From the NCBI RefSeq assembly GCF_053078305.1, contig NZ_CP166879.1: a stretch of 64,000 nt of DNA, one strand, 5' to 3'. Below are positions 1,333-46,804 of this stretch, piece after piece. The position numbers and the translations under genes were made by a program. Each line of letters begins with the position of its first letter. The stretch's first letter is position 1. The notes under the pieces are model-generated. The model ran no database searches and had not been told where the DNA came from. It saw nothing but the letters and a program-made list of their open reading frames with translations.

Positions 1333-1366
1333 ACCCGCCGTGGCGCAACACCACGGCGGGCTCACA

Positions 1367-2539: not shown

Positions 2540-2787
2540 TATTTATTCTCCAGCCATGGAAGTAGAGTTTCCATTAATTGCGCAGGGGTTTTGACATCCA
2601 GCAGAATATTAATAGGAATGGAAATATCGAATCTGTCTTCCAGCATCATTAAGAGATCCATCACTTTGATCGACTCCAGGCCAAGATCGTTGACGAGATC
2701 GCTGTCGGGCTTAATTTCCACACCGTTTTCGACCAAATCCTGTAAACAGGAAAGGATGTAATCCATTACTATTTCACGATTTACCAT
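2539..2787 (-). CDS. acyl carrier protein
   Basis: 82 aa, acidic, DLGLESI motif with the candidate phosphopantetheine-attachment serine; lies between reductase and oxoamine synthase. Confidence 0.7.
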   Translation of the reverse strand: MVNREIVMDYILSCLQDLVENGVEIKPDSDLVNDLGLESIKVMDLLMMLEDRFDISIPINILLDVKTPAQLMETLLPWLENK

Positions 2788-2818
2788 AGAAACGTTAACA
2801 CACCTTTAAACAAGACAA

Positions 2819-5460: not shown

Positions 5461-5814
5461 GAAAAAATTGGATATCCAAAATAAAATGACAATAATGCGG
5501 TGGATTATATAGGTATAAAAGATAAATGAGATAGTATTTTCATTGGTGTGATATTGAACATTGATTAAAATAATGCTTTAAATCTTAACTCTGTTTATTG
5601 TGAATAATATTTAATTTATGAATATATTAAGATAATGCCCTGGTGGGTCGCATTAAATCCACAATAGTCATGTTGATCGGCTAACGGTGGCGCTGGTGTA
5701 TCGTAATTATTCATAAATATTATTTTATTTTTCCTTATATTCATTGCGTGGATAGTTAAGGTACCGTCCGTTGCTGTTTATTTTCAGCATTAATTATTTG
5801 TTATCCACTAAGCT
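5461..5814. promoter_or_regulatory. AT-rich divergent intergenic region between the ligase operon and yghO (putative promoters)
   Basis: 354-bp non-coding, strongly AT-rich segment between divergently oriented genes. Confidence 0.4.
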
Positions 5815-6957: not shown

Positions 6958-6963
6958 TACCAG

Positions 6964-7728
6964 CTAACTCAGGTTCATCTCCAGCGGCACCGCCGAGCGA
7001 ATCAAATGGTGGCCTTCCAGCTCGATATCGTGGAGATTCTTTTTCACGGTCCGCACATGATCGCGTGCTGCGCGCTGGGCGACGTGCGGCAGCCGCTGCA
7101 ACACCGCGTTGTAGATCCGCGCATGCTGGCGATCGATCTGCTTTTTTTGCTGTGGTCGATGGTAGAGATTATTTACGCTGGCAAACACTGAATTAAACAT
7201 CAGGTCAGTCAATGATTGCAGCGTAAACACCAGCACCTGATTGTGAGAAGCCTGACAAATGGCGAGATGGAAAGCGTGATCCAACTGCGCATGTTCGATC
7301 AGCGAAATCTCTTTGTTGTTCTCACTGGCGGCGAGCATTTTTTCATAACAGCGGGTTATCACAACAAAATCAGCCTGCGTTCCCAGCGTTGCCGCCAGCC
7401 TTGCCGATTCGCCCTCCAGCAATGCGCGAACGTCGAGCAGATCGTACAGCGTTCGCGGCTGCGTACTGAACAGATGGATCAGCGGGCTGGTGTCCTGCAC
7501 CCGATTAAGCCGTGCGACACGAGAATCGCGACCCTGCGCCGTTTCAATAATCCCGCGCCCGCGCAGCACGGTCAGCCCTTCACGCAGTGCGGAGCGTGAG
7601 AACCCGAGCTTTTCACACAGTCGACGTTCCGAGGGAAGCGGCTGACCGACCTTCAGTACGCCGTCGATAATTAACCGTTCGATACTCTCTGCAACCACTT
7701 CGCAAATAGGGCGACGTTCATCTTTCAT
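6964..7728 (-). CDS. glcC: GlcC, GntR/FadR-family regulator of the glycolate operon
   Basis: Protein from MKDERRPICEVVAESIERL matches GlcC as recalled; start set at the internal Met rather than the ORF-track start at 7788. Confidence 0.9.
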   Translation of the reverse strand: MKDERRPICEVVAESIERLIIDGVLKVGQPLPSERRLCEKLGFSRSALREGLTVLRGRGIIETAQGRDSRVARLNRVQDTSPLIHLFSTQPRTLYDLLDVRALLEGESARLAATLGTQADFVVITRCYEKMLAASENNKEISLIEHAQLDHAFHLAICQASHNQVLVFTLQSLTDLMFNSVFASVNNLYHRPQQKKQIDRQHARIYNAVLQRLPHVAQRAARDHVRTVKKNLHDIELEGHHLIRSAVPLEMNLS

Positions 7729-7979
7729 TCCCGGACCTCGTGCACAGGTAGGACCAATTTTTCTGTTCTTAACTCGCAAAACACGCACATCACGTAAGTG
7801 ATTATGTTACATCAATTTAACATTGAGTTAACCAAGACAAGGTCACAGAGCTGGAAAAAAAAATGGTCTGACCGGTAGCTAAAGAGATAGACGAAAACGA
7901 AAAGCCCGCTTAATAACTGTTCACAGAAGCAGCGCGCAAAAATCAGCTGCCACACAACATAACAAAGCGAAGCCTACTC
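7729..7979. promoter_or_regulatory. glcC / glcD divergent promoter region
   Basis: Intergenic region between divergent glcC and glcDEFGB. Confidence 0.5.
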
Positions 7980-10531: not shown

Positions 10532-10541
10532 GGAGCAGGCT

Positions 10542-11765
10542 ATGCAAACCCAATTAACTGAAGAGATGCGGCAGAACGCGCGCGCGCTGGAAGCCGACAG
10601 CATCCTGCGCGCCTGTGTTCACTGCGGATTTTGTACCGCAACCTGCCCAACCTATCAGCTTCTGGGCGATGAACTGGACGGGCCGCGCGGGCGCATCTAT
10701 CTGATTAAACAGGTGCTGGAAGGCAACGAAGTCACGCTTAAAACACAGGAGCATCTCGATCGCTGCCTCACTTGCCGCAATTGTGAAACCACCTGTCCTT
10801 CTGGTGTGCGCTATCACAATTTGCTGGATATCGGGCGTGATATTGTCGAGCAGAAAGTGAAACGCCCACTGCCGGAGCGAATACTGCGCGAAGGATTGCG
10901 CCAGGTAGTGCCGCGTCCGGCGGTCTTCCGTGCGCTGACGCAGGTAGGGCTGGTGCTGCGACCGTTTTTACCGGAACAGGTCAGAGCAAAACTGCCTGCT
11001 GAAACGGTGAAAGCTAAACCGCGTCCGCCGCTGCGCCATAAGCGTCGGGTTTTAATGCTGGAAGGCTGCGCCCAGCCTACGCTTTCGCCCAACACCAACG
11101 CGGCAACTGCGCGAGTGCTGGATCGTCTGGGGATCAGCGTCATGCCAGCTAACGAAGCAGGCTGTTGTGGCGCGGTGGACTATCATCTTAATGCGCAGGA
11201 GAAAGGGCTGGCACGGGCGCGCAATAATATTGATGCCTGGTGGCCCGCGATTGAAGCAGGTGCCGAGGCAATTTTGCAAACCGCCAGCGGTTGCGGCGCG
11301 TTTGTCAAAGAGTATGGGCAGATGCTGAAAAACGATGCGTTATATGCCGATAAAGCGCGTCAGGTCAGTGAACTGGCGGTCGATTTAGTCGAGCTTCTGC
11401 GCGAGGAACCGCTGGAAAAACTGGCAATTCGCGGCGATAAAAAACTGGCCTTCCACTGCCCGTGTACCCTACAACATGCGCAAAAGCTGAACGGCGAAGT
11501 GGAAAAAGTGTTGCTTCGTCTTGGATTTACCTTAACGGACGTTCCCGACAGCCATCTGTGCTGCGGGTCGGCGGGAACATATGCGTTAACGCATCCCGAT
11601 CTGGCACGCCAGCTGCGGGATAACAAAATGAATGCGCTGGAAAGCGGCAAACCGGAAATGATCGTCACCGCCAACATTGGTTGCCAGACGCATCTGGCGA
11701 GCGCCGGTCGTACCTCTGTGCGTCACTGGATTGAAATTGTAGAACAAGCCCTTGAAAAGGAATAA
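10542..11765 (+). CDS. glcF: glycolate oxidase iron-sulfur subunit GlcF
   Basis: Start at ATG 10542 (MQTQLTEEM) after GAGGAG ribosome-binding site; two CxxCxxC-type cysteine clusters; ORF-track start at 10353 rejected. Confidence 0.9.
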   Translation: MQTQLTEEMRQNARALEADSILRACVHCGFCTATCPTYQLLGDELDGPRGRIYLIKQVLEGNEVTLKTQEHLDRCLTCRNCETTCPSGVRYHNLLDIGRDIVEQKVKRPLPERILREGLRQVVPRPAVFRALTQVGLVLRPFLPEQVRAKLPAETVKAKPRPPLRHKRRVLMLEGCAQPTLSPNTNAATARVLDRLGISVMPANEAGCCGAVDYHLNAQEKGLARARNNIDAWWPAIEAGAEAILQTASGCGAFVKEYGQMLKNDALYADKARQVSELAVDLVELLREEPLEKLAIRGDKKLAFHCPCTLQHAQKLNGEVEKVLLRLGFTLTDVPDSHLCCGSAGTYALTHPDLARQLRDNKMNALESGKPEMIVTANIGCQTHLASAGRTSVRHWIEIVEQALEKE

Positions 11766-11769
11766 CAAA

Positions 11770-12174
11770 ATGAAAACTAAAGTCATTCTTAGCCAGCAAA
11801 TGGCGAGTGCAATTATTGCCGCAGGTCAGGAAGAGGCGCAGAAAAACAACTGGTCTGTTTCCATTGCTGTTGCCGATGACGGCGGTCATCTGCTGGCGTT
11901 AAGTCGCATGGACGATTGCGCGCCGATTGCGGCTTACATCTCCCAGGAGAAAGCGCGTACCGCCGCGCTGGGGCGTCGTGAAACTAAGGGCTATGAAGAG
12001 ATGGTGAACAACGGACGTACCGCGTTCGTGACTGCGCCGTTATTAACGTCGCTGGAAGGCGGCGTACCGGTTGTTGTTGATGGACAAATTATTGGTGCCG
12101 TGGGCGTTTCTGGTTTAACCGGAGTACAGGATGCGCAGGTCGCGAAAGCGGCAGCAGCGGTGTTGGCGAAATAA
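11770..12174 (+). CDS. glcG: GlcG
   Basis: 134 aa from MKTKVILSQQ; position between glcF and glcB. Confidence 0.85.
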   Translation: MKTKVILSQQMASAIIAAGQEEAQKNNWSVSIAVADDGGHLLALSRMDDCAPIAAYISQEKARTAALGRRETKGYEEMVNNGRTAFVTAPLLTSLEGGVPVVVDGQIIGAVGVSGLTGVQDAQVAKAAAAVLAK

Positions 12175-12195
12175 GCGAAAACGAGGAGAGAAACA

Positions 12196-14367
12196 ATGAG
12201 TCAAACCATAACCCAGGGCCGTTTACGCATTGACGCCAATTTTAAACGTTTTGTGGATGAAGAAGTTTTACCGGGAACAGGGCTGGACGCTGCGGCGTTC
12301 TGGCGCAATTTTGATGAGATCGTTCACGATCTGGCACCAGAAAATCGTCAGTTGCTGGCAGAACGCGATCGCATTCAGGCGGCGCTTGATGAGTGGCATC
12401 GCAGCAATCCGGGGCCGGTAAAAGATAAAGCGGCCTATAAATCTTTCCTGCGTGAACTGGGCTACCTGGTGCCGCAACCGGAGCGCGTGACGGTGGAAAC
12501 CACGGGCATTGACAGCGAAATCACCAGTCAGGCGGGGCCACAGCTGGTGGTTCCGGCAATGAACGCCCGCTACGCGCTGAACGCGGCGAACGCTCGCTGG
12601 GGCTCACTGTACGATGCGTTATACGGCAGCGACATCATCCCGCAGGAAGGGGCGATGGCCAGCGGCTACGATCCGCAACGCGGTGAGCAGGTTATCGCCT
12701 GGGTTCGGCGTTTCCTCGATGAATCTCTACCGCTGGAAAACGGCAGCTATCAGGATGTGGTGGCGTTTAAGGTGGTCGATAAACAATTACGCATCCAGTT
12801 GAAAAATGGTAAAGAAACCACGTTACGTACCCCGGCGCAGTTTGTCGGTTACCGTGGCGATGCCGCTGCGCCGACCTGCATTTTGCTGAAAAATAACGGC
12901 CTGCATATTGAACTGCAAATTGATGCCAACGGGCGGATTGGCAAAGACGATCCGGCGCACATCAACGATGTTATCGTCGAAGCGGCCATCAGTACCATTC
13001 TCGACTGCGAAGATTCGGTCGCGGCGGTTGATGCGGAAGATAAAATCCTGCTGTACCGCAACCTGCTGGGCCTGATGCAGGGGACTCTGCAAGAGAAAAT
13101 GGAGAAAAACGGTCGACAAATCGTGCGTAAACTGAATGACGATCGTCATTACACCGCCGCCGATGGCTCTGAAATTTCTCTGCACGGACGCTCGCTGCTG
13201 TTTATCCGCAACGTGGGTCATTTGATGACCATTCCTGTGATTTGGGACAGCGAAGGCAATGAAATCCCGGAAGGCATTCTTGATGGCGTCATGACTGGCG
13301 CGATTGCCCTCTATGATTTAAAAGTGCAGAAAAACTCGCGCACTGGCAGCGTCTATATTGTGAAACCGAAAATGCACGGTCCGCAGGAAGTGGCGTTCGC
13401 CAACAAACTGTTTACCCGCATTGAGACAATGCTCGGTATGGCACCGAATACCCTGAAAATGGGCATTATGGATGAAGAACGTCGGACCTCGCTGAACTTG
13501 CGTAGCTGTATCGCTCAGGCGCGCAACCGCGTGGCGTTCATCAATACCGGTTTCCTCGACCGTACCGGCGATGAAATGCATTCGGTGATGGAAGCTGGCC
13601 CGATGCTGCGTAAAAATCAGATGAAATCGACGCCTTGGATCAAAGCCTACGAGCGTAATAACGTGCTTTCCGGTCTGTTCTGTGGGCTGCGCGGTAAAGC
13701 GCAAATTGGTAAAGGCATGTGGGCAATGCCGGACCTGATGGCAGACATGTACAGCCAGAAGGGCGACCAACTGCGTGCCGGGGCAAACACAGCCTGGGTT
13801 CCGTCACCAACCGCTGCTACGCTCCATGCGCTGCACTACCACCAAACCAACGTACAGAGCGTGCAAGCCAACATTGCCCAGACCGAGTTCAATGCTGAAT
13901 TTGAACCGCTGCTGGACGATCTGCTGACTATTCCGGTTGCTGAAAACGCTAACTGGTCGGCGCAAGAGATCCAACAAGAGCTGGATAACAACGTGCAGGG
14001 GATTCTGGGGTACGTGGTGCGCTGGGTGGAGCAGGGGATTGGTTGTTCAAAAGTGCCGGATATTCACAATGTGGCGCTGATGGAAGACCGCGCAACGCTG
14101 CGTATCTCCAGCCAGCATATCGCCAACTGGTTACGTCACGGTATTCTGACCAAAGAACAGGTGCAGGCGTCGCTGGAGAATATGGCGAAAGTGGTTGATC
14201 AGCAAAACGCTGGCGATCCGGCTTATCGTCCGATGGCGGGGAATTTCGCTAACTCGTGTGCCTTTAAGGCTGCCAGCGATTTAATCTTCCTTGGCGTGAA
14301 ACAGCCAAACGGCTATACCGAACCGTTATTACACGCCTGGCGTTTACGCGAAAAAGAAAGTCATTAA
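12196..14367 (+). CDS. glcB: malate synthase G
   Basis: 723 aa beginning [27 protein letters not shown]. Confidence 0.95.
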
Positions 14368-14721
14368 TAGCGTCAAAAAAGCCCCGGCAAGTTTTATTGT
14401 CGGGGCTATGATAGTAACTGCGGTAGTACATTTATCCCGGAAATAACCGGAGCGATTATCAGGGTTTAACAATATTAAATACCCGTAGCGCATTACTAGC
14501 GGGCCTAAAACAACAATATGGACATCTTAACGATACTCTGCGCCTGCGTGTGCGGAACAGAAACCCTTACCCGATATACTTGTTATGCCAGAGGTAGCAA
14601 TTGCGTTAGCGGCGTACTGTTGCTGTAAAGTATAACGCCTATATTTTACAGTTCAGTCCTCTTTTGCTTATTACAACCTTAAGTATATCAAGCATATAAA
14701 GATAATAAGAGACTGAACAAT

Positions 14722-16404
14722 ATGGTTACCTGGACCCAAATGTATATGCCGATGGGAGGACTGGGGCTATCCGCTCTGGTCGCCCTGATCCCGATAATAT
14801 TCTTCTTCGTTGCACTCGCGGTATTACGTCTGAAAGGACATGTTGCCGGAGCAATAACCCTTATATTATCTATCCTGATTGCGATATTCGCCTTTAAAAT
14901 GCCGATTGATATGGCATTTGCTGCTGCGGGCTATGGCTTTATTTATGGATTATGGCCAATAGCGTGGATTATTGTCGCGGCGGTGTTCCTGTATAAATTA
15001 ACCGTTGCCAGCGGGCAGTTCGATATTATCCGCAGCTCGGTTATCTCCATCACCGACGATCAGCGTTTGCAGGTGTTACTGATTGGTTTCTCCTTTGGTG
15101 CGTTGCTGGAAGGAGCGGCTGGCTTTGGTGCGCCGGTGGCGATTACCGGTGCGCTGCTGGTGGGCCTGGGCTTCAAACCGTTATACGCGGCGGGGCTGTG
15201 TCTGATTGCCAATACTGCGCCAGTGGCGTTTGGTGCGTTGGGCGTGCCGATTCTGGTCGCCGGTCAGGTAACGGGAATCGATCCGTTCCACATTGGCGCA
15301 ATGGCGGGACGTCAGTTACCGTTCCTGTCGGTTCTTGTGCCGTTCTGGCTGGTAGCAATGATGGACGGCTGGAAAGGGGTGAAAGAGACGTGGCCAGCGG
15401 CGCTGGTTGCAGGGGGAAGCTTCGCTGTCACTCAGTTCTTTACCTCTAACTATATTGGTCCGGAACTGCCGGATATTACTTCGGCGCTGGTGAGTATCGT
15501 CTCACTCGCTTTATTCCTTAAAGTCTGGCGGCCGAAAAATACCGAAACGGCAATCAGCATGGGACAATCCGCAGGTGCGATGGTGGTAAATAAGCCATCT
15601 TCTGGCGGTCCCGTGCCTTCAGAATATAGTCTGGGGCAAATCATTCGAGCGTGGTCACCGTTTTTAATCTTAACGGTGCTGGTCACCATCTGGACCATGA
15701 AGCCGTTTAAAGCGTTATTTGCTCCGGGCGGCGCGTTTTATTCACTGGTGATTAATTTCCAGATCCCTCATTTGCATCAACAAGTGTTGAAAGCGGCACC
15801 CATTGTCGCCCAACCAACGCCAATGGATGCGGTGTTTAAATTCGACCCCCTCTCGGCTGGCGGCACCGCTATTTTTATTGCGGCGATTATCTCTATCTTC
15901 ATCCTCGGTGTGGGGATCAAGAAAGGTATTGGCGTCTTTGCCGAAACGCTAATTAGCCTGAAGTGGCCGATACTGTCGATTGGCATGGTGTTGGCATTTG
16001 CCTTCGTGACCAACTATTCCGGTATGTCCACCACGCTGGCGCTGGTACTGGCGGGTACTGGTGTGATGTTCCCGTTCTTCTCGCCATTCCTCGGCTGGCT
16101 GGGGGTATTCCTTACCGGCTCGGACACTTCCTCTAACGCCCTGTTTGGTTCACTGCAATCGACCACGGCGCAGCAAATCAACGTCTCTGACACTCTGCTG
16201 GTGGCAGCAAATACCAGCGGCGGCGTAACTGGCAAGATGATCTCCCCGCAATCTATCGCCGTGGCCTGCGCCGCGACGGGCATGGTGGGCCGAGAATCTG
16301 AACTGTTCCGCTACACCGTGAAGCACAGTCTGATTTTTGCCAGCGTTATCGGCATTATCACCCTGCTGCAGGCATATGTGTTTACCGGGATGTTAGTCTC
16401 GTAA
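14722..16404 (+). CDS. glcA: glycolate permease (lactate permease family)
   Basis: 560 aa polytopic membrane protein directly after glcB. Confidence 0.9.
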
Positions 16405-16413
16405 GTCAATAAT

Positions 16414-16448
16414 GCCGGATGATCGTTAATATCATCCGGCTTCATTTA
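16414..16448 (+). terminator. putative intrinsic terminator after glcA
   Basis: Perfect 10-bp stem gccggatgat / atcatccggc with 7-nt loop, followed by a T-containing tract. Confidence 0.5.
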
Positions 16449-16888
16449 CATTATTCTGTCTTATTAATTGAAAATTATTTCTCGCTTTATTATCCATGCA
16501 GCAATAATGTTTTGCGTTCAGATAACCTGCTAAATAATTAAGAGCGTGAGAATATCTATTTTTTTATGACGCAAAACAAGTCTGTATTAATTATGTTCGC
16601 TTGATGAGCAAACACCGTTCTATCTGTTGCTTTTGCAATCTTAATCGTTAAAACTACCAACGAATTTATATAGTTACGTTGTGAAATGTTGTTAATTTTT
16701 TGTTTATTGAAATTTCGTAAAAATAGCCAAATAGACATCGTATAGGGGTTATTCTTATAAATTTCACCTGTTTTCTATCAATGATGTCGTTTTCTTAAGA
16801 ATGGAGGAAATTATTAAAGAAGATAAAGCATAAAACTATTTCTCCCAGTTACGAATTTTTTAACATTGTTTTGTCACTTGCGTTATTA

Positions 16889-19800
16889 ATGAATAAGAAA
16901 TTTAAATATAAGAAATCGCTTTTAGCGGCTATTTTGAGTGCAACCCTGTTAGCCGGTTGTGATGGCGGTGGCTCCGGATCTTCCTCCGATACGCCGCCTG
17001 TAGATTCTGGAACAGGGTCTTTGCCGGAAGTGAAACCTGATCCAACACCAAACCCGGAGCCGACGCCTGAGCCAACGCCGGACCCAGAACCTACGCCGGA
17101 ACCGACACCTGATCCTGAGCCAACACCAGAACCGGAGCCAGAACCTGTTCCTACGAAAACGGGTTATCTGACCCTGGGCGGAAGTCTGCGGGTAACTGGT
17201 GATATCACCTGTAATGATGAATCCAGCGATGGCTTTACATTTAAACCTGGCGAGGACGTTACTTGCGTGGCGGGTAACACGACAATTGCCACCTTCAACA
17301 CTCAGTCAGAAGCTGCGCGTAGCTTGCGTGCGGTTGAAAAAGTGTCGTTTAGCCTTGAGGACGCGCAAGAACTGGCGGGCTCCGATGACAAGAAAAGCAA
17401 TGCGGTTTCGCTGGTAACGTCCAGTAACAGCTGTCCGGCGGATACAGAACAGGTTTGCCTGACGTTCTCCTCGGTGATCGAGAGTAAACGTTTCGACTCG
17501 CTGTATAAGCAAATCGATCTGGCACCGGAAGAGTTCAAAAAGCTGGTCAATGAAGAGGTGGAAAACAATGCTGCGACCGATAAAGCGCCATCCACTCATA
17601 CTTCACCGGTCGTGCCCGTCACCACGCCGGGAACAAAACCGGATCTGAACGCTTCCTTCGTGTCGGCTAACGCGGAACAGTTTTATCAGTATCAACCCTC
17701 GGAAATCATTCTCTCAGAAGGTCGCCTGGTGGATAGCCAGAGATATGGTGTTGCTGGCGTCAACTACTACACCAATTCAGGCCGTGGCGTGACAGGAGAA
17801 AATGGTGAATTTTCCTTTAGCTGGGGCGAAACCATCTCCTTTGGTATCGACACCTTTGAACTGGGCTCAGTACGCGGCAATAAGTCGACCATTGCATTGA
17901 CTGAGTTGGGCGACGAAGTTCGCGGCGCGAATATCGATCAGCTTATTCATCGTTATTCCCAAGCCGGAAAAAATGATGAGCGTGAAGTGCCGGACGTAGT
18001 GCGCCAGGTCTTTGCCGAGTATCCCAACGTGATCAACGAGATTATCAATCTCTCGTTATCCAATGGCGAGGCGTTGAGCGAAGGCGACCAAACCTTTGAG
18101 CGGACAAACGAATTTCTTGAGCAGTTTGAATCCGGGCAGGCTAAAGAGATTGATACGGCGATTTGTGACTCTCTTGGGGGCTGCAACTCTCAGCGTTGGT
18201 TCTCGTTGACAGCACGCAATGTTAACGAAGGTCAGATTCAGGGCGTTATCAACAAGCTGTGGGGTGTGGATGAAGATTACAAATCGGTGACGAAATTCCA
18301 CGTCTTTCATGACTCTACCAACTTCTATGGCAGCACCGGTAATGCGCGCGGTCAGGCGGTGGTGAATATCTCCAACGCGGCCTTCCCGATTCTGATGGCG
18401 CGTAATGATAAAAACTACTGGCTGGCCTTCGGCGAGAAACGGGCCTGGGATAAAAATGAGCTGGCGTACATTACTGAAGCGCCTTCCATTGTGCGACCAG
18501 AGAACGTGACACGCGAAACCGCCACCTTCAACCTGCCGTTTATTTCGCTGGGGCAAGTGGGCGATGGCAAGCTGATGGTTATCGGTAACCCACACTACAA
18601 CAGCATCCTGCGTTGCCCGAACGGTTACAGCTGGAACGGGGGCGTTAATAAAGATGGGCAGTGTACGCTCAACAGCGACCCGGATGACATGAAGAACTTC
18701 ATGGAGAACGTGCTGCGCTATCTGTCAAATGATCGCTGGTTGCCGGATGCAAAATCCAGTATGACCGTGGGTACTAACCTGGAGACGGTGTATTTCAAAA
18801 AACACGGGCAGGTTACAGGAAACAGTGCTGCGTTTGGCTTCCATCCGGATTTTGCGGGTATCTCTGTTGAGCATTTAAGTAGCTATGGCGATCTCGATCC
18901 GCAGGACATGCCACTGCTGATCCTCAACGGCTTTGAGTATGTGACTCAGGTGGGGGGCGATCCCTATGCAGTGCCTCTGCGTGCAGATACCAGCAAACCG
19001 AAGCTGACCCAGCAGGATGTGACCGATCTGATCGCCTATCTGAACAAAGGTGGCTCGGTGCTGATCATGGAAAACGTGATGAGCAATCTTAAGGAAGAGA
19101 GCGCGTCTGGCTTTGTGCGTCTGCTGGATGCCGCAGGCCTGTCAATGGCACTGAACAAGTCGGTGGTGAATAACGATCCGCAGGGGTATCCGGATCGCGT
19201 ACGCCAACAACGCGCAACGGGTATTTGGGTCTATGAACGTTATCCGTTTGTTGATGGTAAACCGCCGTATACCATTGATGAAACAACGAAAGAAGTTATC
19301 TGGAAATACCAGCAAGACAACAAGCCTGATGATAAGCCGAAACTGGAAGTTGCCAGCTGGCAGGAGGAAGTTGAGGGCAAACAGGTAACGCGTTATGCCT
19401 TTATTGATGAGGCGGAGTTTAAAACAAAAGAGTCTCTGGAGGCTGCAAAGGCAAAAATCTTTGAGAAGTTTCCTGGATTAAAGGAGTGTAAGGACCCAAC
19501 TTACCACTACGAGGTCAACTGCCTGGAATATCGTCCTGGCACGGGAGTTCCGGTTACTGGTGGCATGTATGTTCCACAGTATACGCAACTAAGCCTTAAC
19601 GCCGACACTGCAAAAGCGATGGTGCAGGCTGCAGATTTAGGCACCAACATTCAGCGTCTGTATCAGCATGAGCTCTACTTCCGGACCAATGGTCGCAAAG
19701 GTGAGCGTCTGAGCAGCGTCGATCTGGAACGTCTGTACCAGAACATGTCGGTCTGGCTGTGGAACGATACGAGCTATCGTTATGAAGAAGGCAAAAATGA

Positions 19801-21454
19801 CGAGCTGGGCTTTAAAACGTTCACCGAGTTCCTGAACTGCTATACCAATGATGCCTATACCGATGGCACACAGTGCTCCGCAGATCTGAAAAAATCGCTG
19901 GTCGATAACAACATGATCTACGGTGAAAGTAGCGGTAAAGCGGGCATGATGAACCCAAGCTATCCACTCAACTATATGGAAAAACCGCTGACGCGCCTGA
20001 TGCTGGGCCGTTCCTGGTGGGATCTGAACATTAAGGTTGATGTGGAGAAGTACCCTGGAGCGGTATCTGTAGGGGGAGAAGAGGTTACTGAAACCATCAG
20101 CCTGTACTCGAATCCGACCAAATGGTTTGCAGGTAACATGCAGTCAACTGGCCTGTGGGCACCGGCTCAGAAAGAGGTCACCATTAAGTCCAATGCGAAC
20201 GTTCCTGTGACCGTCACCGTGGCGCTGGCTGACGACCTGACCGGACGTGAGAAGCATGAAGTTGCGCTGAACCGTCCGCCAAGAGTGACTAAAACGTACT
20301 CTCTGGACGCTAGCGGTACGGTGAAGTTCAAGGTGCCTTACGGTGGCCTGATTTATATCAAGGGCAATAGCTCTACCAATGAATCTGCCAGCTTCACCTT
20401 TACTGGCGTGGTAAAAGCACCGTTCTATAAAGACGGCGCATGGAAAAACGATCTGAACTCACCGGCTCCGCTGGGTGAGCTGGAATCAGACGCTTTCGTC
20501 TATACCACACCGAAGAAGAACCTGAATGCCAGCAATTACACTGGCGGATTGGAGCAATTCGCTAACGATCTGGACACCTTTGCCAGCTCGATGAATGACT
20601 TCTACGGTCGTGATGAAACGAGCGGTAAGCACCGGATGTTTACCTATAAAGCATTGACGGGACATAAACATCGTTTCACAAACGATGTGCAGATCTCCAT
20701 CGGTGATGCGCACTCGGGTTATCCGGTAATGAACAGCAGCTTCTCGACGAACAGCACCACGCTGCCGACGACGCCGCTGAACGACTGGTTGATCTGGCAC
20801 GAAGTAGGGCACAACGCCGCAGAAACGCCGCTGACTGTTCCAGGCGCGACCGAAGTGGCGAACAACGTGCTGGCGCTGTACATGCAGGATCGTTATCTCG
20901 GCAAGATGAACCGTGTCGCTGACGATATTACCGTCGCGCCGGAATATCTGGAGGAGAGCAACAACCAGGCTTGGGCGCGCGGCGGTGCGGGTGACCGTTT
21001 GCTGATGTACGCGCAGCTGAAGGAATGGGCAGAGAAAAACTTTGATATCAAGAAATGGTATCCAGATGGCACTCCTCTGCCAGAGTTTTACAGCGAGCGT
21101 GAAGGGATGAAAGGCTGGAACCTGTTCCAGTTGATGCATCGTAAAGCACGCGGCGATGATGTTGGCAATGACAAATTTGGCAACAGAAACTACTGTGCCG
21201 AATCCAACGGTAACGCTGCCGACAAGCTGATGCTGTGTGCCTCCTGGGTCGCCCAGACGGATCTTTCGGAGTTCTTTAAAAAATGGAATCCGGGCGCGAA
21301 TGCTTACCAGCTGCCGGGGGTGAGCGAGATGAACTTCGAGGGCGGTGTGAGCCAGTCGGCTTACGAGACGCTGGCGGCGCTTGGTCTGCCGAAACCGCAG
21401 CAAGGGCCGGAAACCATTAATCAGGTTACCGAGCATAAGATGTCAGCCGAGTAA
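16889..21454 (+). CDS. sslE: SslE/YghJ secreted lipoprotein, M60-like zinc metalloprotease (mucinase)
   Basis: Starts MNKKFKYKKSLLAAILSATLLAGC (lipobox); Pro-Glu-Pro-Thr repeat linker; HEVGH zinc-binding motif encoded at 20798-20812. Confidence 0.9.
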   Translation: MNKKFKYKKSLLAAILSATLLAGCDGGGSGSSSDTPPVDSGTGSLPEVKPDPTPNPEPTPEPTPDPEPTPEPTPDPEPTPEPEPEPVPTKTGYLTLGGSLRVTGDITCNDESSDGFTFKPGEDVTCVAGNTTIATFNTQSEAARSLRAVEKVSFSLEDAQELAGSDDKKSNAVSLVTSSNSCPADTEQVCLTFSSVIESKRFDSLYKQIDLAPEEFKKLVNEEVENNAATDKAPSTHTSPVVPVTTPGTKPDLNASFVSANAEQFYQYQPSEIILSEGRLVDSQRYGVAGVNYYTNSGRGVTGENGEFSFSWGETISFGIDTFELGSVRGNKSTIALTELGDEVRGANIDQLIHRYSQAGKNDEREVPDVVRQVFAEYPNVINEIINLSLSNGEALSEGDQTFERTNEFLEQFESGQAKEIDTAICDSLGGCNSQRWFSLTARNVNEGQIQGVINKLWGVDEDYKSVTKFHVFHDSTNFYGSTGNARGQAVVNISNAAFPILMARNDKNYWLAFGEKRAWDKNELAYITEAPSIVRPENVTRETATFNLPFISLGQVGDGKLMVIGNPHYNSILRCPNGYSWNGGVNKDGQCTLNSDPDDMKNFMENVLRYLSNDRWLPDAKSSMTVGTNLETVYFKKHGQVTGNSAAFGFHPDFAGISVEHLSSYGDLDPQDMPLLILNGFEYVTQVGGDPYAVPLRADTSKPKLTQQDVTDLIAYLNKGGSVLIMENVMSNLKEESASGFVRLLDAAGLSMALNKSVVNNDPQGYPDRVRQQRATGIWVYERYPFVDGKPPYTIDETTKEVIWKYQQDNKPDDKPKLEVASWQEEVEGKQVTRYAFIDEAEFKTKESLEAAKAKIFEKFPGLKECKDPTYHYEVNCLEYRPGTGVPVTGGMYVPQYTQLSLNADTAKAMVQAADLGTNIQRLYQHELYFRTNGRKGERLSSVDLERLYQNMSVWLWNDTSYRYEEGKNDELGFKTFTEFLNCYTNDAYTDGTQCSADLKKSLVDNNMIYGESSGKAGMMNPSYPLNYMEKPLTRLMLGRSWWDLNIKVDVEKYPGAVSVGGEEVTETISLYSNPTKWFAGNMQSTGLWAPAQKEVTIKSNANVPVTVTVALADDLTGREKHEVALNRPPRVTKTYSLDASGTVKFKVPYGGLIYIKGNSSTNESASFTFTGVVKAPFYKDGAWKNDLNSPAPLGELESDAFVYTTPKKNLNASNYTGGLEQFANDLDTFASSMNDFYGRDETSGKHRMFTYKALTGHKHRFTNDVQISIGDAHSGYPVMNSSFSTNSTTLPTTPLNDWLIWHEVGHNAAETPLTVPGATEVANNVLALYMQDRYLGKMNRVADDITVAPEYLEESNNQAWARGGAGDRLLMYAQLKEWAEKNFDIKKWYPDGTPLPEFYSEREGMKGWNLFQLMHRKARGDDVGNDKFGNRNYCAESNGNAADKLMLCASWVAQTDLSEFFKKWNPGANAYQLPGVSEMNFEGGVSQSAYETLAALGLPKPQQGPETINQVTEHKMSAE

Positions 21455-42437: not shown

Positions 42438-45400
42438 TCAGAAGGTCACATTCAGCGTGGCCTGACCGTTATAGCCTTCAGCGCTGCTGCCGCTGACGCT
42501 GTGGACATAACCTGCCTGAACGCCCAGGGTGATGTTTTCCCGGACACGGGCTTCCAGTCCGGCCTGCAGGTCCAGTGACGTACCATTCTGTGACGGTGAG
42601 AACGTCATGTTACTGCCGGCTGCGGCTGTACCCATGCTCATGTCCCCCCGGGAGCTGAAGGTGCGGATAACAGAAGGCTGTACCCACCAGTTCACCGGCA
42701 GTTCACGCACACTGTGTTTGGCACTGCCGCGCAGGGTGTCACGGGATGAGGTGCCTTTACCAAAGTTCATATCGTTGTGGCTGCCCAGACGGAAGCCGGC
42801 ACGCACATGTTGTGCACTGCCATGCCCGAACTTCACATAACCGGCGTTGTCCTGACCGTCATCCAGGGAGAGTCCCTGCCAGGTGTACTGCAGTTGCGGC
42901 TCCAGCATCAGATTGTCAGTGATACTGAAGGGCAGACCGGTTTCCAGTGAACCCAGCCAGCCCCGGCCCCGGACGCGGAAGTCGTTATTGTCCGATGAGG
43001 CTTTCATGCTGTGGCGGGTTCCCTGGGCCACAATGTCAGCCCACAGGCCGGAGGCGTTGTGTATCAGATTCAGGTATCCGCCCAGGCTGCCGGCATCATC
43101 CCGGACCGTGCCGGCACGGGAGCCGTCATCATCCTTAACATCAACGGAAGAATGGCCTGCAGCACCATACACCCCTGTCGTCAGAGACATACCGGCAACC
43201 TCTGTTCTCATCAGGTCACCCTCCAGACGGACGAAGCCATAGCTGCCGCTGCTTTCCGGCGTGGCCCCACGGACAATACCGCCGTTGTTATCGTGACCGA
43301 GATGGCCGCCCTGAATGCTGAGACGGACGCTGTTATTTTCACCGTTTACACCGGTCTGATGGCTGCGGGAGCCTGCCAGAATCCGGTCATAGTCCATTGC
43401 CTGTGTCAGCATGGAGGCATACAGGGGGACTTCTGCACGATAAGCATTTTCACTGCGCAGATACCAGCTCTCATCACTGTCCCGGTTGAGGGAGTAGTTA
43501 AAGGCCCCGGCCTGCAGCCTGTTCCCCTGGACAAAGGCCCCTTCCTCCGTGGTGGCACCGTTAATGGCTTCCACCACCTGAATACCCTTACCGCTGGTCG
43601 CCAGCCCCGACGCACTGTTGCCGGCGTTCACCATGTTCAGGATGGTTTTTCCGGTTGCCCTGCCGCCGTCAATGACCAGTCTGTCAGCATTGTTCTGTGC
43701 CATATCCGGGCGTACACGCAGGCTGATGGTGCCATTCTGCCCGTTCAGGTTTTTCACTTTCAGGGTTGCCGGTACGAACTTCCCTGTGCGGGTGGAGGTG
43801 AAATGAATCTGTCCGGCATGGCTGAGGTCATCCACCACCGACTGCACCGTGGCGTTATCAGGGATATTCCAGGTGGCACCGGAGGCGAGAGTGACATTCG
43901 TGGGGTCAATGGCACCGTTCAGCACAGTGCTGCCGGTCAGCTTCAGGGCTGTACCGCGCTGAGCAATGACATCCGTGGTGACGGTACTGTCGTTCAGCGT
44001 CAGCGTGCCTTCATTCAGGTTGACGGCTTTCTGGGTGAGTGTGGTGTTGCTGACAGTGAGTGTGCCACTTCCTGATTTTTCCACGCTGCCGTTACCGGTG
44101 AGAGAGCCTCCCTGCAGGAGTGCATCGCCTTCACGGATGGTCAGGGTATCGTTGTTCACCGTCTTCCCGGAAAGGGTAAGTATGGCGCCGTTATTCAGCG
44201 TGGTGGTGCCCGCCAGTGTGCCGCCCCTGGCGGTGAACAGTCCGCCATTTACCGTGGTATCCGTGGCCGTATCACCGGCGTTCAGCGTGAATGAACTGCC
44301 TTTTTCCAGCATCAGGGCATCCGCCTGACCGCCTCCGATACTGAATGCCTTTCCGTCGCTCCGTGTACCACTGACAGCGGCACCGGAATCGGCCAGCAGT
44401 ACACCGCCATTTCCCATGGATACGGTGGTGGCGGTACCACCGTTGCGGACATCCAGCGTTCCGCCATCATCCACACGGGTATTAGTGGCTGTGTGTCCGC
44501 TCAGCACATCCAGACGTCCGCCATTTTCCAGTACGACATTATCAGCTTTACCCTCCACAACAGAGAATGCTCCCAGGCGGTTTGTACCGGTAACGGTTGC
44601 AGCCGTACTGGTAACCAGTGCACCGCCCGTGTTCTGGGTGACATCAGACGCTTTACCGCCGGCATTCACCTGCAGCTTTCCTTTCTGGTTGATGGTGGTA
44701 TGCGCGGCAGTTCCTCCTTCCTTAATCACCTGCCAGCCATCACGGTTTATCAGCGTCTCTGTTGCCGTGCCACCGTTGTGTACATACTGGTTACCCCCCT
44801 CCAGCCGGGTGTTATGTGCCTCTCCGTGTACCGTCTGGTCACCACCGGCGTAAATGAGGGTGTCCCGTGCCATCCCCGAAGACCAGATAACCTGCCGGCC
44901 ATTTTTGTTGATGGTGGTGGATTCAGCCGTCCCTCCGACCATCTGACCGCTGGACACATTTTCAGACTCCGGACCACCTTCTGCACCGGTGTTGACGATG
45001 GTTCCGGTTGCCAGTCCGCCATGTTTTATGGTCTGGTAACCATCCAGGTTAATAATTGTACCGGCAGCTTTCCCTCCCCCGTGTACCCACTGCTCACCTC
45101 TGTTATCCAGCGTGGTGTTCACCGCCAGTCCGTTAAGGCTCTGCCCTCCGCCATCACGAATAACCGTATCACTGGCAGTTCCTCCTGCCTGCACAATCTG
45201 ACGACCATTTGCGGTGACAGTGGTGTTTCTGCCTGTGCCACCCGCGTTTATCCATTGCCCGCCGGTGTTTTCGTCACTGTCCGGCCCCAGCTCAAGCCCG
45301 GTACTGACAGTCACGCCATCAGCTGTTCCGGATACAAACTGGTTGTCATGGTTTACCAGTGTTCCGCCATTCACTGTTTCACCCGGGTGCACAACGATGT

Positions 45401-45560
45401 CAGCAGCCAGCACCGGGAGTGACGTGACCGCGGCAAGAGACAGTGCAACCGCCACACCGCCACGTTTACCCCGTGCGCGGGCCAGTTCGGAGGCAACCAC
45501 GAAAGCGCCCGTAATGTGATTCCATACCAGCCTGTAGCAGGTATTCAGATGTCGTTTCAT
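42438..45560 (-). CDS. flu: antigen 43 self-associating autotransporter adhesin
   Basis: MKRHLNTCYRLVWNHITGAFVVASELARARG extended signal peptide; repetitive beta-helix passenger; C-terminal beta-barrel ending in F. Confidence 0.9.
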   Translation of the reverse strand: MKRHLNTCYRLVWNHITGAFVVASELARARGKRGGVAVALSLAAVTSLPVLAADIVVHPGETVNGGTLVNHDNQFVSGTADGVTVSTGLELGPDSDENTGGQWINAGGTGRNTTVTANGRQIVQAGGTASDTVIRDGGGQSLNGLAVNTTLDNRGEQWVHGGGKAAGTIINLDGYQTIKHGGLATGTIVNTGAEGGPESENVSSGQMVGGTAESTTINKNGRQVIWSSGMARDTLIYAGGDQTVHGEAHNTRLEGGNQYVHNGGTATETLINRDGWQVIKEGGTAAHTTINQKGKLQVNAGGKASDVTQNTGGALVTSTAATVTGTNRLGAFSVVEGKADNVVLENGGRLDVLSGHTATNTRVDDGGTLDVRNGGTATTVSMGNGGVLLADSGAAVSGTRSDGKAFSIGGGQADALMLEKGSSFTLNAGDTATDTTVNGGLFTARGGTLAGTTTLNNGAILTLSGKTVNNDTLTIREGDALLQGGSLTGNGSVEKSGSGTLTVSNTTLTQKAVNLNEGTLTLNDSTVTTDVIAQRGTALKLTGSTVLNGAIDPTNVTLASGATWNIPDNATVQSVVDDLSHAGQIHFTSTRTGKFVPATLKVKNLNGQNGTISLRVRPDMAQNNADRLVIDGGRATGKTILNMVNAGNSASGLATSGKGIQVVEAINGATTEEGAFVQGNRLQAGAFNYSLNRDSDESWYLRSENAYRAEVPLYASMLTQAMDYDRILAGSRSHQTGVNGENNSVRLSIQGGHLGHDNNGGIVRGATPESSGSYGFVRLEGDLMRTEVAGMSLTTGVYGAAGHSSVDVKDDDGSRAGTVRDDAGSLGGYLNLIHNASGLWADIVAQGTRHSMKASSDNNDFRVRGRGWLGSLETGLPFSITDNLMLEPQLQYTWQGLSLDDGQDNAGYVKFGHGSAQHVRAGFRLGSHNDMNFGKGTSSRDTLRGSAKHSVRELPVNWWVQPSVIRTFSSRGDMSMGTAAAGSNMTFSPSQNGTSLDLQAGLEARVRENITLGVQAGYVHSVSGSSAEGYNGQATLNVTF

Positions 45561-45589
45561 CAGCATTTCCTTAATCAGAGTGAGAGTGA

Positions 45590-45625
45590 ATAAAAAAGCC
45601 GGTATCCACAGATGTGGATACCGGC
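45590..45625 (-). terminator. terminator-like hairpin plus T-tract in the flu leader, about 30 nt upstream of the start codon
   Basis: 13-bp inverted repeat gccggtatccaca / tgtggataccggc followed on the minus strand by a 7-T run. Confidence 0.5.
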
Positions 45626-45739
45626 AGGTAAAGGGTTACAGTGCCAGAGGTCCGGCTGACGGAAGTTTCTGACGTGTGGCTCTGTTGTTCCCTGAATGTC
45701 TTTCTGTACGTATCTGTGCATGTTACTGACAAAGGTTAT

Positions 45740-45800
45740 TATTAGCTTATCGATCGATATAAACGATCGATAAAATAGGTATCGATCGTTTTATTCTATT
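45740..45800 (-). promoter_or_regulatory. flu regulatory region with three clustered GATC sites (Dam/OxyR phase-variation switch)
   Basis: GATC at 45752-45755, 45765-45768 and 45784-45787, about 190-230 bp upstream of the flu start. Confidence 0.7.
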
Positions 45801-45892
45801 GTTTGGCTATTGCACGGACAAGAGAGACAGTAACGAAAACAGCGCTTTTGTGAGCAGACTCAGAGTCAGGGAGGGCATCAGTCACGACAGGT

Positions 45893-46804
45893 TCAGAAGA
45901 AAATCCAGTTCCATACCGCACGGGCAACAGAGACCACCGTGTTACGAACAGCGCGCAGGGCCGTACGGACAACAGAGGCAACACAGACGCTCTCCGCTGT
46001 GTCAAATATCCGGTCCACCGCACCGGTAAACTGTTCACGGGCCTGAGACCGGACAGATTCCGTGCGCAGCTCGTCCTGCAGTCGGGTCATCAGGGGACTG
46101 GCGGCATGGTCGGGAAGCGCTGTCATGAGCGCACTGACCAGCGTATCCAGTTCCCAGCCGGTGCGGGCCGATACGGCCACAACCGGATGTACGGGCCGGA
46201 ACAGACGGAATACCGCCTCCGTTTTTTCGCGAATATTCTGTGCCTGTGCAGGAGAAGGCTGAATACCGGCCATATCCCATTCATGGCAGGGCTCCGTTTT
46301 GTCGGCCTGCGTCACCACAAACAGCACCTGCTGATGTCCCCGGTGCAGGATGTGTCGCCAGAAATACTCATCCACAGACAGGGCCCGGTCATCGGCTTTA
46401 ATCAGCCACAGCACCAGGTCAAGTTCAGGCAGAATGTCACGGTACAGGGCCTCATACTCTGCATCCCTGTCCCGGCTCTCGCCCACCCCGGGCAGGTCAG
46501 TGATAACCATGCTGTGACCGTGGCCACTCAGACGGAAGCGCCGTACTTCCCGGGTGCCGGCGTGAACATCACTGACCGGGGTGACCTCCCCCTGAAACAG
46601 TGCATTACAGAGTGAGGATTTACCGGCCCCGCTTTTACCCATAATGCCAATCACGGGTTCGTGACGGGTGAGTTTGCGCAGATGTTCCAGGATGTGACGG
46701 GAAAGTGAGTAAGGCAGGGAGGAGAGCGGTTTTTCAATTGCCTCAATGGCATCAGACGGATTCATACATGTATTCCCGGTGAAAAAAGACAAAACCCCGC
46801 GCAC
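45893..46804 (-). CDS. YeeP/YfjP-family GTPase
   Basis: P-loop GKSGAGKSS and DxxG motifs; start may be the internal Met at 46765. Confidence 0.75.
   Translation of the reverse strand: MRGVLSFFTGNTCMNPSDAIEAIEKPLSSLPYSLSRHILEHLRKLTRHEPVIGIMGKSGAGKSSLCNALFQGEVTPVSDVHAGTREVRRFRLSGHGHSMVITDLPGVGESRDRDAEYEALYRDILPELDLVLWLIKADDRALSVDEYFWRHILHRGHQQVLFVVTQADKTEPCHEWDMAGIQPSPAQAQNIREKTEAVFRLFRPVHPVVAVSARTGWELDTLVSALMTALPDHAASPLMTRLQDELRTESVRSQAREQFTGAVDRIFDTAESVCVASVVRTALRAVRNTVVSVARAVWNWIFF

What the first reader, a model, noticed from the sequence alone, without database searches (positions are those of the whole stretch)
45752..45787. Three clustered GATC sites upstream of flu: Dam/OxyR phase-variation switch
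GATC sites at 45752, 45765 and 45784 lie within 36 bp, about 190-230 bp upstream of the flu start. This matches the established architecture in which Dam methylation of three GATC sites competes with OxyR binding to switch Ag43 ON and OFF. The site is intact, so this island copy of flu is probably phase variable.
Basis: partly seen in the sequence, partly recalled or inferred. Interest (0 to 1): 0.4.

Follow-up and report, generated by a model that had tools for sequence, protein, structure and literature searches.

The report
Known Ag43 Dam/OxyR phase switch
The three GATC sites are the well-known methylation-controlled ON/OFF switch of the E. coli adhesin gene agn43 (flu), intact in this genomic-island copy, so the finding is correct but ordinary.

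Summary
GATC occurs at 45752, 45765 and 45784, upstream of a minus-strand Ag43 gene (42438..45560). Clustering alone is weak evidence, because three other loci in the window have three GATC within 36 bp. Homology settles the identity. The region aligns base for base with the K-12 agn43 regulatory region: same -35 and -10 hexamers, same three GATC at 19 and 13 bp spacing, same 14/20 match to the OxyR consensus. It also equals the consensus of eight natural alleles. The sites lie at the 5' end of a full-length IS102/IsrC leader (Rfam, 253 bits), which ends in a terminator hairpin. Published 5' RACE in ST131 places the start site on the first GATC, which corresponds to 45787 here. The switch probably controls a whole agn43-yeeR-irmA operon. 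Methylation state, OxyR binding and switching cannot be tested from sequence. Verdict: already known, low interest. One by-product is more unusual. The agn43 coding sequence has no GATC where about 9 are expected. This holds in 9 of the 11 Ag43/Cah alleles sampled, and the other two share a single site. Three other K-12 autotransporter genes show no such depletion.

The parts
45784..45787 (-). GATC-I, the promoter-proximal Dam site. Its G at 45787 is the inferred transcription start (+1).
   Evidence: One search gives the position. The K-12 isrC annotation starts at the homologous G (L001:1818). The EC958 5' RACE start site lies 228 bp from the start codon, and GATC-I lies at -228 in an ST131 allele.
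45765..45768 (-). GATC-II, 19 bp downstream of GATC-I (start to start).
   Evidence: Invariant in all alleles.
45752..45755 (-). GATC-III, 13 bp downstream of GATC-II.
   Evidence: Invariant in all alleles.
45753..45789 (-). Predicted OxyR tetramer site: a 37-bp match to ATAGnTnnnAnCTAT-N7-ATAGnTnnnAnCTAT. Three of its four contact elements overlap a GATC.
   Evidence: 14 of 20 specified positions match, the same score and register as K-12, and among the four best-scoring loci in 64 kb. The two differences from K-12 fall on N positions. Binding itself was not tested.
45816..45821 (-). -35 hexamer TTGTCC.
   Evidence: Identical in K-12 and in all 8 alleles.
45793..45798 (-). -10 hexamer TAGAAT, with a 17-bp spacer.
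   Evidence: AGAAT is invariant in 8 alleles.
45761..45791 (.). Perfect 12-bp inverted repeat AAACGATCGATA / TATCGATCGTTT embracing GATC-I and GATC-II. This is the dyad symmetry of the operator.
   Evidence: 12 pairs, 7-nt spacer. K-12 has one mismatch in the repeat.
45585..45789 (-). IS102/IsrC RNA, the agn43 5' leader transcript.
   Evidence: Rfam RF00124, 252.9 bits (gathering score 46), model positions 1-206 of 206.
45588..45625 (-). Leader intrinsic terminator: a 12-bp GC-rich hairpin followed by a T run, about 30 nt before the Shine-Dalgarno sequence.
   Evidence: hairpin present in both the minimum-free-energy and centroid folds. Conserved in K-12 and cah. Flu is described as controlled by antitermination of IsrC.
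42438..45560 (-). agn43 (flu) coding sequence, 1040 aa. An extra in-frame ATG lies at 45566.
   Evidence: Pfam ESPR, AIDA, AC_1 and Autotransporter domains. NCBIfam auto_Ag43 equivalog, 1857 bits against a cut-off of 1200. 89% identical to K-12 Ag43 over the full length.
39801..42323 (-). Full-length yeeR-like gene, second gene of the operon.
   Evidence: Residues 3-509 are 100% identical to K-12 YeeR, which is truncated in K-12. Synteny. No minus-strand terminator-like site between the genes.
39270..39725 (-). irmA (interleukin-receptor mimic protein), third gene of the operon.
   Evidence: PDB 5EK5 IRMA, E = 2.8e-83. The agn43-yeeR-irmA operon is OxyR-repressed in CFT073, EC958 and 83972.

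Best explanation
This is the agn43 (flu) epigenetic phase-variation switch, in an E. coli genomic-island copy of the gene.

A sigma-70 promoter (-35 TTGTCC at 45821-45816, -10 TAGAAT at 45798-45793, minus strand) starts transcription at or next to the G of the first GATC (45787). One OxyR tetramer site covers about -2 to +35 and contains all three GATC sites.

If the sites are unmethylated, OxyR binds, blocks transcription and shields the sites from Dam. This is the heritable OFF state. If Dam methylates them first, during the window after replication, OxyR cannot bind and the promoter fires. This is the heritable ON state.

ON-state transcripts begin with the 200-nt IS102/IsrC leader, whose terminator hairpin must be read through. 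They then probably continue through agn43, yeeR and irmA.

Shown here: the sequence elements, their homology and their conservation. Taken from the literature: the Dam/OxyR competition. Inferred: that this copy actually switches.
For: Homology of the switch:
- Base-for-base alignment with K-12 keeps the -35, the -10 and all three GATC. There are 2 substitutions between GATC-I and GATC-II (both on N positions of the OxyR consensus) and 3 in the promoter spacer, one of which lies within the remembered -16 to +42 footprint.
- The core sequence equals the consensus of 8 natural alleles. Over a 91-bp core it is 100% identical to E. coli SCU-482.
- The triad spacing of 19/13 bp is invariant in agn43 and cah alleles.
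- The OxyR consensus score is 14/20, the same as K-12.

Transcript anatomy:
- Rfam IS102 matches full length at 253 bits.
- K-12 isrC starts on the G of GATC-I.
- The EC958 start site, 228 bp from the start codon, coincides with GATC-I at -228 in an ST131 allele.

Genes and host:
- The Ag43 gene is intact.
- yeeR and irmA are intact, with no terminator-like site between the genes.
- The host core genes are 98.5% identical to E. coli.

The mechanism is described in PMC2909390, PMC3764049, PMC4872104, PMC13337833 and PMC4807369.
Against: - Nothing in the sequence contradicts the explanation.
- Methylation state, OxyR binding and ON/OFF switching cannot be read from DNA.
- dam and oxyR are not in the window. 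Their presence is inferred from the host being E. coli.
- The exact footprint (-16 to +42) and the minimal 101-nt region are recalled from Wallecha et al. 2002, which the library does not hold.
- The closest regulatory allele, SCU-482, sits in front of a frameshifted agn43, so an intact switch does not guarantee a working gene elsewhere.
- The effect of the leader terminator on expression of this allele is unknown.
Confidence: 0.9

Rival explanations
1. The switch sequence is intact, but this copy does not phase-vary in practice. It could be locked or silent, for example because the leader terminator stops nearly all transcripts, or because the strain's Dam:OxyR balance fixes one state.
For: The leader carries a strong terminator hairpin. 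Flu expression is said to need antitermination of IsrC. Switching was not measured.
Against: The same terminator is present in K-12, ST131 and cah alleles. Of these, K-12 agn43 is known to phase-vary, and the ST131 strain EC958 operon is OxyR-repressed. The core sequence is the consensus of natural alleles.
Confidence: 0.07
2. The element chiefly serves to make the small RNA IsrC/IS102. The GATC sites regulate that RNA rather than Ag43.
For: The GATC sites lie at the 5' end of a full-length IS102 match that ends at a terminator. K-12 annotates it as a separate ncRNA.
Against: IsrC is the agn43 leader from the same start site, so this is not exclusive of the main explanation. oxyR deletion raises agn43 mRNA 121-fold in EC958.
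Confidence: 0.02
3. The cluster is a chance aggregation of GATC with no regulatory role.
For: Three other loci in the window also have three GATC within 36 bp.
Against: The cluster is homologous to the characterised K-12 switch. The triad is invariant across alleles whose flanks differ. It is the only intergenic cluster. It coincides with a promoter and an OxyR-consensus match.
Confidence: 0.01

Closest known systems
[quoted passage not shown] 2002)
   Same: Orthologous locus with the same -35 and -10, three GATC at the same spacing, the same OxyR-consensus register and score, the same IsrC leader and terminator, and the same flanking GTPase gene and Ag43 gene.
   Different: Five substitutions in the 91-bp core, none in a GATC, a promoter hexamer or a specified OxyR-consensus position. 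The leader is 5 nt longer. The upstream GTPase gene and yeeR are intact here, whereas in K-12 yeeP is a pseudogene and yeeR is truncated. Ag43 is 89% identical.
UPEC agn43-yeeR-irmA operon of EC958/CFT073 on the pheV and serX islands (Moriel et al. 2016, PMC4807369)
   Same: Same gene order agn43, full-length yeeR, irmA. Same island type and the pheV-side chromosomal context. The agn43 coding sequence is 97% identical to an ST131 allele.
   Different: The regulatory region is only about 90% identical to the ST131 one and is closest to strain SCU-482 at 97.9%. The locus is therefore a mosaic.
cah (calcium-binding antigen 43 homologue) regulatory region of E. coli O157
   Same: Same -10, three GATC with identical 19/13 spacing, the same leader terminator, the same upstream GTPase gene, and a GATC-free coding sequence.
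   Different: The 7-nt spacer between GATC-I and GATC-II is the reverse complement, with one mismatch. The -35 region and the middle of the leader are unrelated. The leader is longer, with GATC-I at -252.
Salmonella gtr and opvAB OxyR/Dam phase-variation systems
   Same: Dam methylation of GATC inside OxyR half-sites sets heritable ON and OFF states.
   Different: Those systems have four GATC in two pairs, alternative OxyR sites upstream of the promoter, and OxyR acting as both activator and repressor. Here a single repressor site overlaps +1.
pap Lrp/Dam switch
   Same: Dam-dependent epigenetic phase variation of a surface adhesin.
   Different: pap uses Lrp and PapI with two GATC 102 bp apart in alternative binding sites. 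That architecture is absent here.

Membership tests
agn43/flu Dam-OxyR phase-variation switch | Three closely spaced GATC sites in the agn43 regulatory region | tested here: met
   Sites at 45752, 45765 and 45784. The spacing of 19 and 13 bp is identical to K-12 and to 7 other agn43 alleles and 2 cah alleles.
agn43/flu Dam-OxyR phase-variation switch | Sequence homology to the characterised K-12 regulatory region | tested here: met
   Alignment A1: 94.5% identity over the 91-bp core and 94.3% over 316 bp. No change in a GATC or a promoter hexamer.
agn43/flu Dam-OxyR phase-variation switch | Sigma-70 promoter placed so that transcription starts at the first GATC and the sites lie in the early transcribed region | tested here: met
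   -35 TTGTCC, 17-bp spacer, -10 TAGAAT ending 6 nt before 45787. The homologous start site is supported by the K-12 isrC start and by the EC958 5' RACE position of 228 bp, which equals GATC-I at -228 in an ST131 allele. No transcript data exist for this strain.
agn43/flu Dam-OxyR phase-variation switch | A single OxyR binding site overlapping the three GATC sites | tested here: inconclusive
   The consensus match is 14/20, the same as K-12 in the same register. A motif match is not binding, so a footprint or gel shift is needed.
agn43/flu Dam-OxyR phase-variation switch | The downstream gene encodes an Ag43-family autotransporter | tested here: met
   NCBIfam auto_Ag43 equivalog at 1857 bits against a cut-off of 1200. 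89% identity to K-12 Ag43 over the full length.
agn43/flu Dam-OxyR phase-variation switch | The host has Dam and OxyR | not testable with these tools
   Neither gene is in the window. The host is E. coli by 98.5% identity of the glc-sslE region over 20 kb, with synteny continuing through gsp to yghD, and both genes are core genes of that species by established knowledge.
agn43/flu Dam-OxyR phase-variation switch | Differential methylation of the sites in ON and OFF lineages, with heritable reversible switching | not testable with these tools
   This needs methylation-sensitive digestion or long-read methylation calls, plus colony assays.
IS102/IsrC RNA (Rfam RF00124) | Score above the curated gathering threshold with the full-length covariance model | tested here: met
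   252.9 bits against a gathering score of 46, model positions 1-206 of 206, at 45789..45585 on the minus strand.
agn43-yeeR-irmA operon | Co-oriented agn43, full-length yeeR and irmA with no intervening terminator | tested here: met
   ORFs at 42438-45560, 39801-42323 and 39270-39725, all on the minus strand. IrmA matches PDB 5EK5 at E = 2.8e-83. YeeR is 100% identical over 507 aa. No minus-strand terminator-like site. Co-transcription itself is taken from PMC4807369.
pap-type Lrp/Dam switch | Two GATC sites about 102 bp apart within alternative Lrp site sets | tested here: not met
   Only three GATC occur between 42294 and 46821, all within 36 bp.
gtr/opvAB-type OxyR/Dam switch | Four GATC in two pairs within alternative OxyR half-sites upstream of the promoter | tested here: not met
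   There are three GATC, all at or downstream of +1, in one OxyR site. The architecture is contrasted in PMC2909390.

The most novel reading that the evidence does not exclude
The switch may depend on a GATC-free neighbourhood. The agn43 coding sequence has 0 GATC against about 9 expected, and this rests on context-specific codon choice. The depletion is kept in agn43 and cah alleles that are 81-97% identical, and it is absent from three other K-12 autotransporter genes. Selection may remove every other Dam, SeqA or MutH target from the transcription unit, so that the three operator sites are the only local substrate. That would tune Dam-versus-OxyR competition and so the switching rates. I found no statement of this for agn43 in the searchable literature, although GATC-free stretches in mobile elements are reported in general.
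Probability: 0.25. Interest if true: 0.45.

Novelty: already known. Interest (0 to 1): 0.12.

Why it matters
For annotation, it matters modestly. It marks this island's Ag43 adhesin, and probably also YeeR and the cytokine-receptor mimic IrmA, as likely to be expressed in only part of a clonal population. That affects how expression, biofilm or vaccine-antigen data from the strain should be read. It also identifies three GATC sites that long-read methylomes should report as variably methylated. It adds nothing new to the biology of Dam/OxyR switching. The conserved GATC-free coding sequence beside the switch is the only element that could lead to a new, testable question.

Tried and rejected
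- **Chance cluster:** rejected. Cluster statistics alone were unconvincing (4 loci in the window), but homology and invariance across alleles settle it.
- **pap-type or gtr/opvAB-type architecture:** rejected on site number and placement.
- **Primary papers:** I tried to read Wallecha 2002 (PMC135096), Kaminska 2010 (PMC2838033) and Wallecha 2014 (PMC4135670). None is held. Footprint coordinates and the minimal region are therefore from memory, cross-checked indirectly through the isrC annotation and the EC958 5' RACE result.
- **Scan of species-representative genomes for the triad pattern:** 3 hits. One I read and it is unrelated GC-rich sequence in a Planctomycetota MAG. A second, in a Krumholzibacteriota MAG, I did not inspect and presume to be chance, since about 0.5 chance hits are expected. 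The third is a 1.56-kb cah-type contig binned to a Collinsella MAG, probably E. coli DNA. The scan was uninformative about taxonomic range, because the E. coli representative gave no exact match to the pattern.
- **Second switch or second IS102 copy in the window:** none found.
- **Literature on a GATC-free agn43:** only general statements about GATC-free regions in mobile elements.
- **Low mismatch repair as the reason for the GATC desert:** considered. Two chromosomal studies listed (PMC5376664, PMC3306285) state in their titles and abstracts that GATC methylation or content near a site does not govern local mutation rate, so I did not favour it.

Full report
**1. The observation**

GATC occurs at 45752, 45765 and 45784. 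The neighbouring large ORF is on the minus strand, at 42438..45566. It carries the ESPR signal, AIDA repeats, the AC_1 autochaperone and the autotransporter beta-barrel. It scores 1857 bits against the NCBIfam Ag43 equivalog, whose cut-off is 1200. It is 89% identical to K-12 Ag43 over its full length.

K-12 Met1 aligns with residue 3 of the ORF. A Shine-Dalgarno sequence (AAGGA) precedes the second ATG. The real start is therefore probably 45560, and the first ATG comes from an A-to-T difference from K-12.

**2. Is it more than chance?**

By count alone, hardly. The window holds exactly the expected number of GATC, 245 against 245.15. Four loci have three sites within 36 bp, against about one expected. 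The other three clusters lie inside coding sequences: an ACP-like ORF, glcC and sslE. This is the only intergenic cluster, and it sits between GATC-free stretches of 3461 bp and 1037 bp. What makes it meaningful is homology.

**3. What it is**

The minus-strand sequence aligns base for base with the K-12 MG1655 region between yeeP and flu.
- The -35 (TTGTCC) and -10 (TAGAAT, 17-bp spacer) hexamers are identical, as are all three GATC sites, each in a CGATC(G) context.
- Within the 91-bp core there are five substitutions. Three lie in the promoter spacer. Two lie between GATC-I and GATC-II, where K-12 GATCAATATCTAT becomes GATCGATACCTAT.
- Scored against the OxyR tetramer consensus ATAGnTnnnAnCTAT-N7-ATAGnTnnnAnCTAT (recalled from Toledano et al. 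1994; the half-site is quoted in PMC2909390), the site at 45789..45753 matches 14 of 20 specified positions.
- That is the same score and register as K-12. Both substitutions fall on N positions. Three of the four contact elements overlap a GATC.

I aligned eight alleles: K-12, SCU-482, an ST131 strain, 95-3322, HH35, FDAARGOS_1255, PSS-13 and the window. The -35, the -10, the three GATC and their 19/13 bp spacing are invariant. The window's core equals the consensus, and K-12 is the minority state at both variable positions.

The leader region is found in 1,902 of 5,426 complete E. coli genomes. Eleven of them carry a core at least 99% identical, and SCU-482 is 100% identical.

**4. Transcript anatomy**

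Rfam IS102 (the same RNA as IsrC) matches 45789..45585 on the minus strand over its full length, at 252.9 bits. In K-12 the annotated isrC starts on the G of GATC-I.

[quoted passage not shown] In an ST131 allele GATC-I begins at -228. Both agree with my recollection of Wallecha et al. 2002, a paper the library does not hold. As I recall it:
- Transcription starts at the G of the upstream GATC.
- OxyR(C199S) protects -16 to +42.
- A 101-nt region suffices for phase variation.

By homology, +1 here is 45787 and the footprint equivalent is about 45803..45746. The three Dam sites are therefore at +1 to +36, inside the transcribed leader and not upstream of the promoter.

The leader ends in a 12-bp GC-rich hairpin plus a T run at 45625..45588. 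This hairpin is conserved in K-12 and cah. Flu is described as controlled by antitermination of IsrC (citing Wallecha et al. 2014).

**5. What it controls**

Downstream on the same strand are a full-length yeeR and irmA.
- yeeR is at 39801..42323. Its residues 3-509 are 100% identical to the truncated K-12 YeeR.
- irmA is at 39270..39725 and matches PDB 5EK5 at E = 2.8e-83.
- No minus-strand terminator-like site lies between the genes.

This is the agn43-yeeR-irmA operon. It was shown to be co-transcribed in EC958. OxyR repression of IrmA was shown in CFT073, EC958 and 83972, with agn43 mRNA rising 121-fold and irmA 12.9-fold in an EC958 oxyR mutant. The switch therefore probably phase-varies three genes plus IsrC.

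**6. Context**

The left 33.5 kb of the window is E. coli core sequence. The glc-sslE part (5000-25000) is 98.5% identical to its best match, and synteny in that reference continues through gsp to yghD. The island starts right after yghD, where tRNA-Phe (pheV) lies in the reference strain. No tRNA is present in the window.

The island has the CP4-44-like module: DUF4942, DUF5983, cbtA/cbeA, RadC-like, antirestriction, DUF932, irmA, yeeR, agn43, a GTPase and a YfjI-like gene. It is only about 94% identical to any island in the collection.

The locus is a mosaic. The regulatory region is closest to SCU-482 (97.9%), the agn43 coding sequence to ST131 (97.2%), and the yeeR 5' part to K-12.

**7. 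Mechanism and rivals**

The best explanation is the established Dam/OxyR competition.
- Unmethylated sites let OxyR bind. OxyR represses transcription and protects the sites from Dam. This is OFF.
- Methylated sites exclude OxyR. This is ON.
- Switching occurs after replication, through hemimethylated intermediates, in roughly 1 in 100 to 1 in 1,000 cells per generation.

I put 0.9 on this being the functional orthologous switch. The rivals are an intact but locked or silent copy (0.07), an element that serves only IsrC (0.02) and a chance cluster (0.01). None of the functional steps can be tested from sequence.

**8. Comparison and novelty**

This is the same system as the K-12 and UPEC agn43 switch, so it is already known.

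The related cah regulatory region of O157 keeps the -10, the triad spacing and the terminator. Its 7-nt spacer between GATC-I and GATC-II is the reverse complement, with one mismatch. The Salmonella gtr/opvAB systems and pap use Dam differently, and their architectures are not met here.

**9. By-product: the GATC desert**

The agn43 coding sequence contains no GATC.
- Shuffling codon order gives 11.1 expected. Permuting synonymous codons gives 9.1. A Markov estimate gives 8.5. None of 1000 shuffles reached zero.
- Codon choice shows how. Asp before a C-starting codon is GAC in 6 of 6 cases, while elsewhere GAT accounts for 31 of 51. Ile after a G-ending codon is never ATC (0 of 7), while elsewhere ATC accounts for 13 of 28. 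The neighbouring yeeR and the core gene sslE show no such bias.
- Eight other agn43 alleles, 87-97% identical with 648 variable columns, have 0 or 1 GATC each.
- Two cah alleles, 81-84% identical, have 0 against 6-7 expected.
- Placing the observed inter-allele substitutions at random would create 3-4 GATC in the most divergent alleles, with P about 0.01-0.03 each. These tests are not independent.
- Three other K-12 autotransporter genes, yfaL, ypjA and ycgV, have roughly their expected counts or a modest deficit: 22 against 20.9, 9 against 14.3, and 10 against 14.0.

A second desert of 5242 bp covers the cbtA/cbeA-antirestriction module. It recurs in another strain's island.

GATC-free regions of at least 1 kb enriched in mobile elements were reported for EC958 without naming agn43. 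I found no paper linking this to the switch. Whether the desert insulates the operator from processive Dam, SeqA or MutH is speculation. It is the most novel reading left open.

Noticed in passing
window 42295..45751 (agn43 coding sequence and leader): The agn43 coding sequence has 0 GATC where about 9 are expected from synonymous-codon shuffles, and it shows GATC-avoiding codon choice. The depletion is conserved in 8 other agn43 alleles and 2 cah alleles. It is absent from K-12 yfaL, ypjA and ycgV and from the adjacent yeeR, which has 21 GATC.
   Followed up: yes
window 33918..39155: A second GATC-free stretch of 5242 bp, longer than any in 300 simulations (maximum 3089). It covers DUF4942, DUF5983, cbtA/cbeA, RadC-like, antirestriction and DUF932 genes. 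The homologous module in strain OkiPb01677 (L003:3647..8118) is also GATC-free.
   Followed up: partly
window 39270..46804: The locus is a mosaic. The regulatory region is closest to strain SCU-482 (97.9%), the agn43 coding sequence to an ST131 allele (97.2%), and the first 507 aa of YeeR are 100% identical to K-12. No island in 5,426 genomes exceeds about 94% identity overall.
   Followed up: partly
L014:3514..3886 (O157 cah upstream region); L011:1131..1171: The cah regulatory region keeps the -10, the GATC triad spacing and the leader terminator. Its 7-nt spacer between GATC-I and GATC-II is the reverse complement of the agn43 one, with one mismatch. The same variant lies on a 1.56-kb contig binned to a Collinsella MAG, with no autotransporter downstream. 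That contig is probably misbinned E. coli DNA with a deletion.
   Followed up: partly
window 45761..45791: This allele has a perfect 12-bp inverted repeat (AAACGATCGATA / TATCGATCGTTT) around GATC-I and GATC-II. K-12 has one mismatch in it.
   Followed up: no
window 45564..45566: An extra in-frame ATG two codons upstream of the conserved agn43 start. It arises from an A-to-T difference from K-12, so ORF finders report 1042 aa instead of 1040.
   Followed up: partly
window 2655..2700; 7114..7138; 18890..18922: Other tight GATC clusters, all inside ORFs: four sites in 46 bp within an 82-aa ACP-like ORF, three in glcC and three in sslE. Their significance is unknown.
   Followed up: no
window 33545..33900: The island begins right after yghD (gspM-like), where a reference strain has tRNA-Phe (pheV). 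ARAGORN finds no tRNA anywhere in the window, so pheV and the integrase end of the island presumably lie beyond 64000.
   Followed up: partly
window 14422..14643 (-): Full-length Rfam C0719 sRNA match (299 bits) in the glc region.
   Followed up: no
window 45893..46804 (-): The YeeP-like GTPase gene upstream of the switch is intact here, whereas it is a pseudogene in K-12. It too lacks GATC (0 against about 3 expected).
   Followed up: partly
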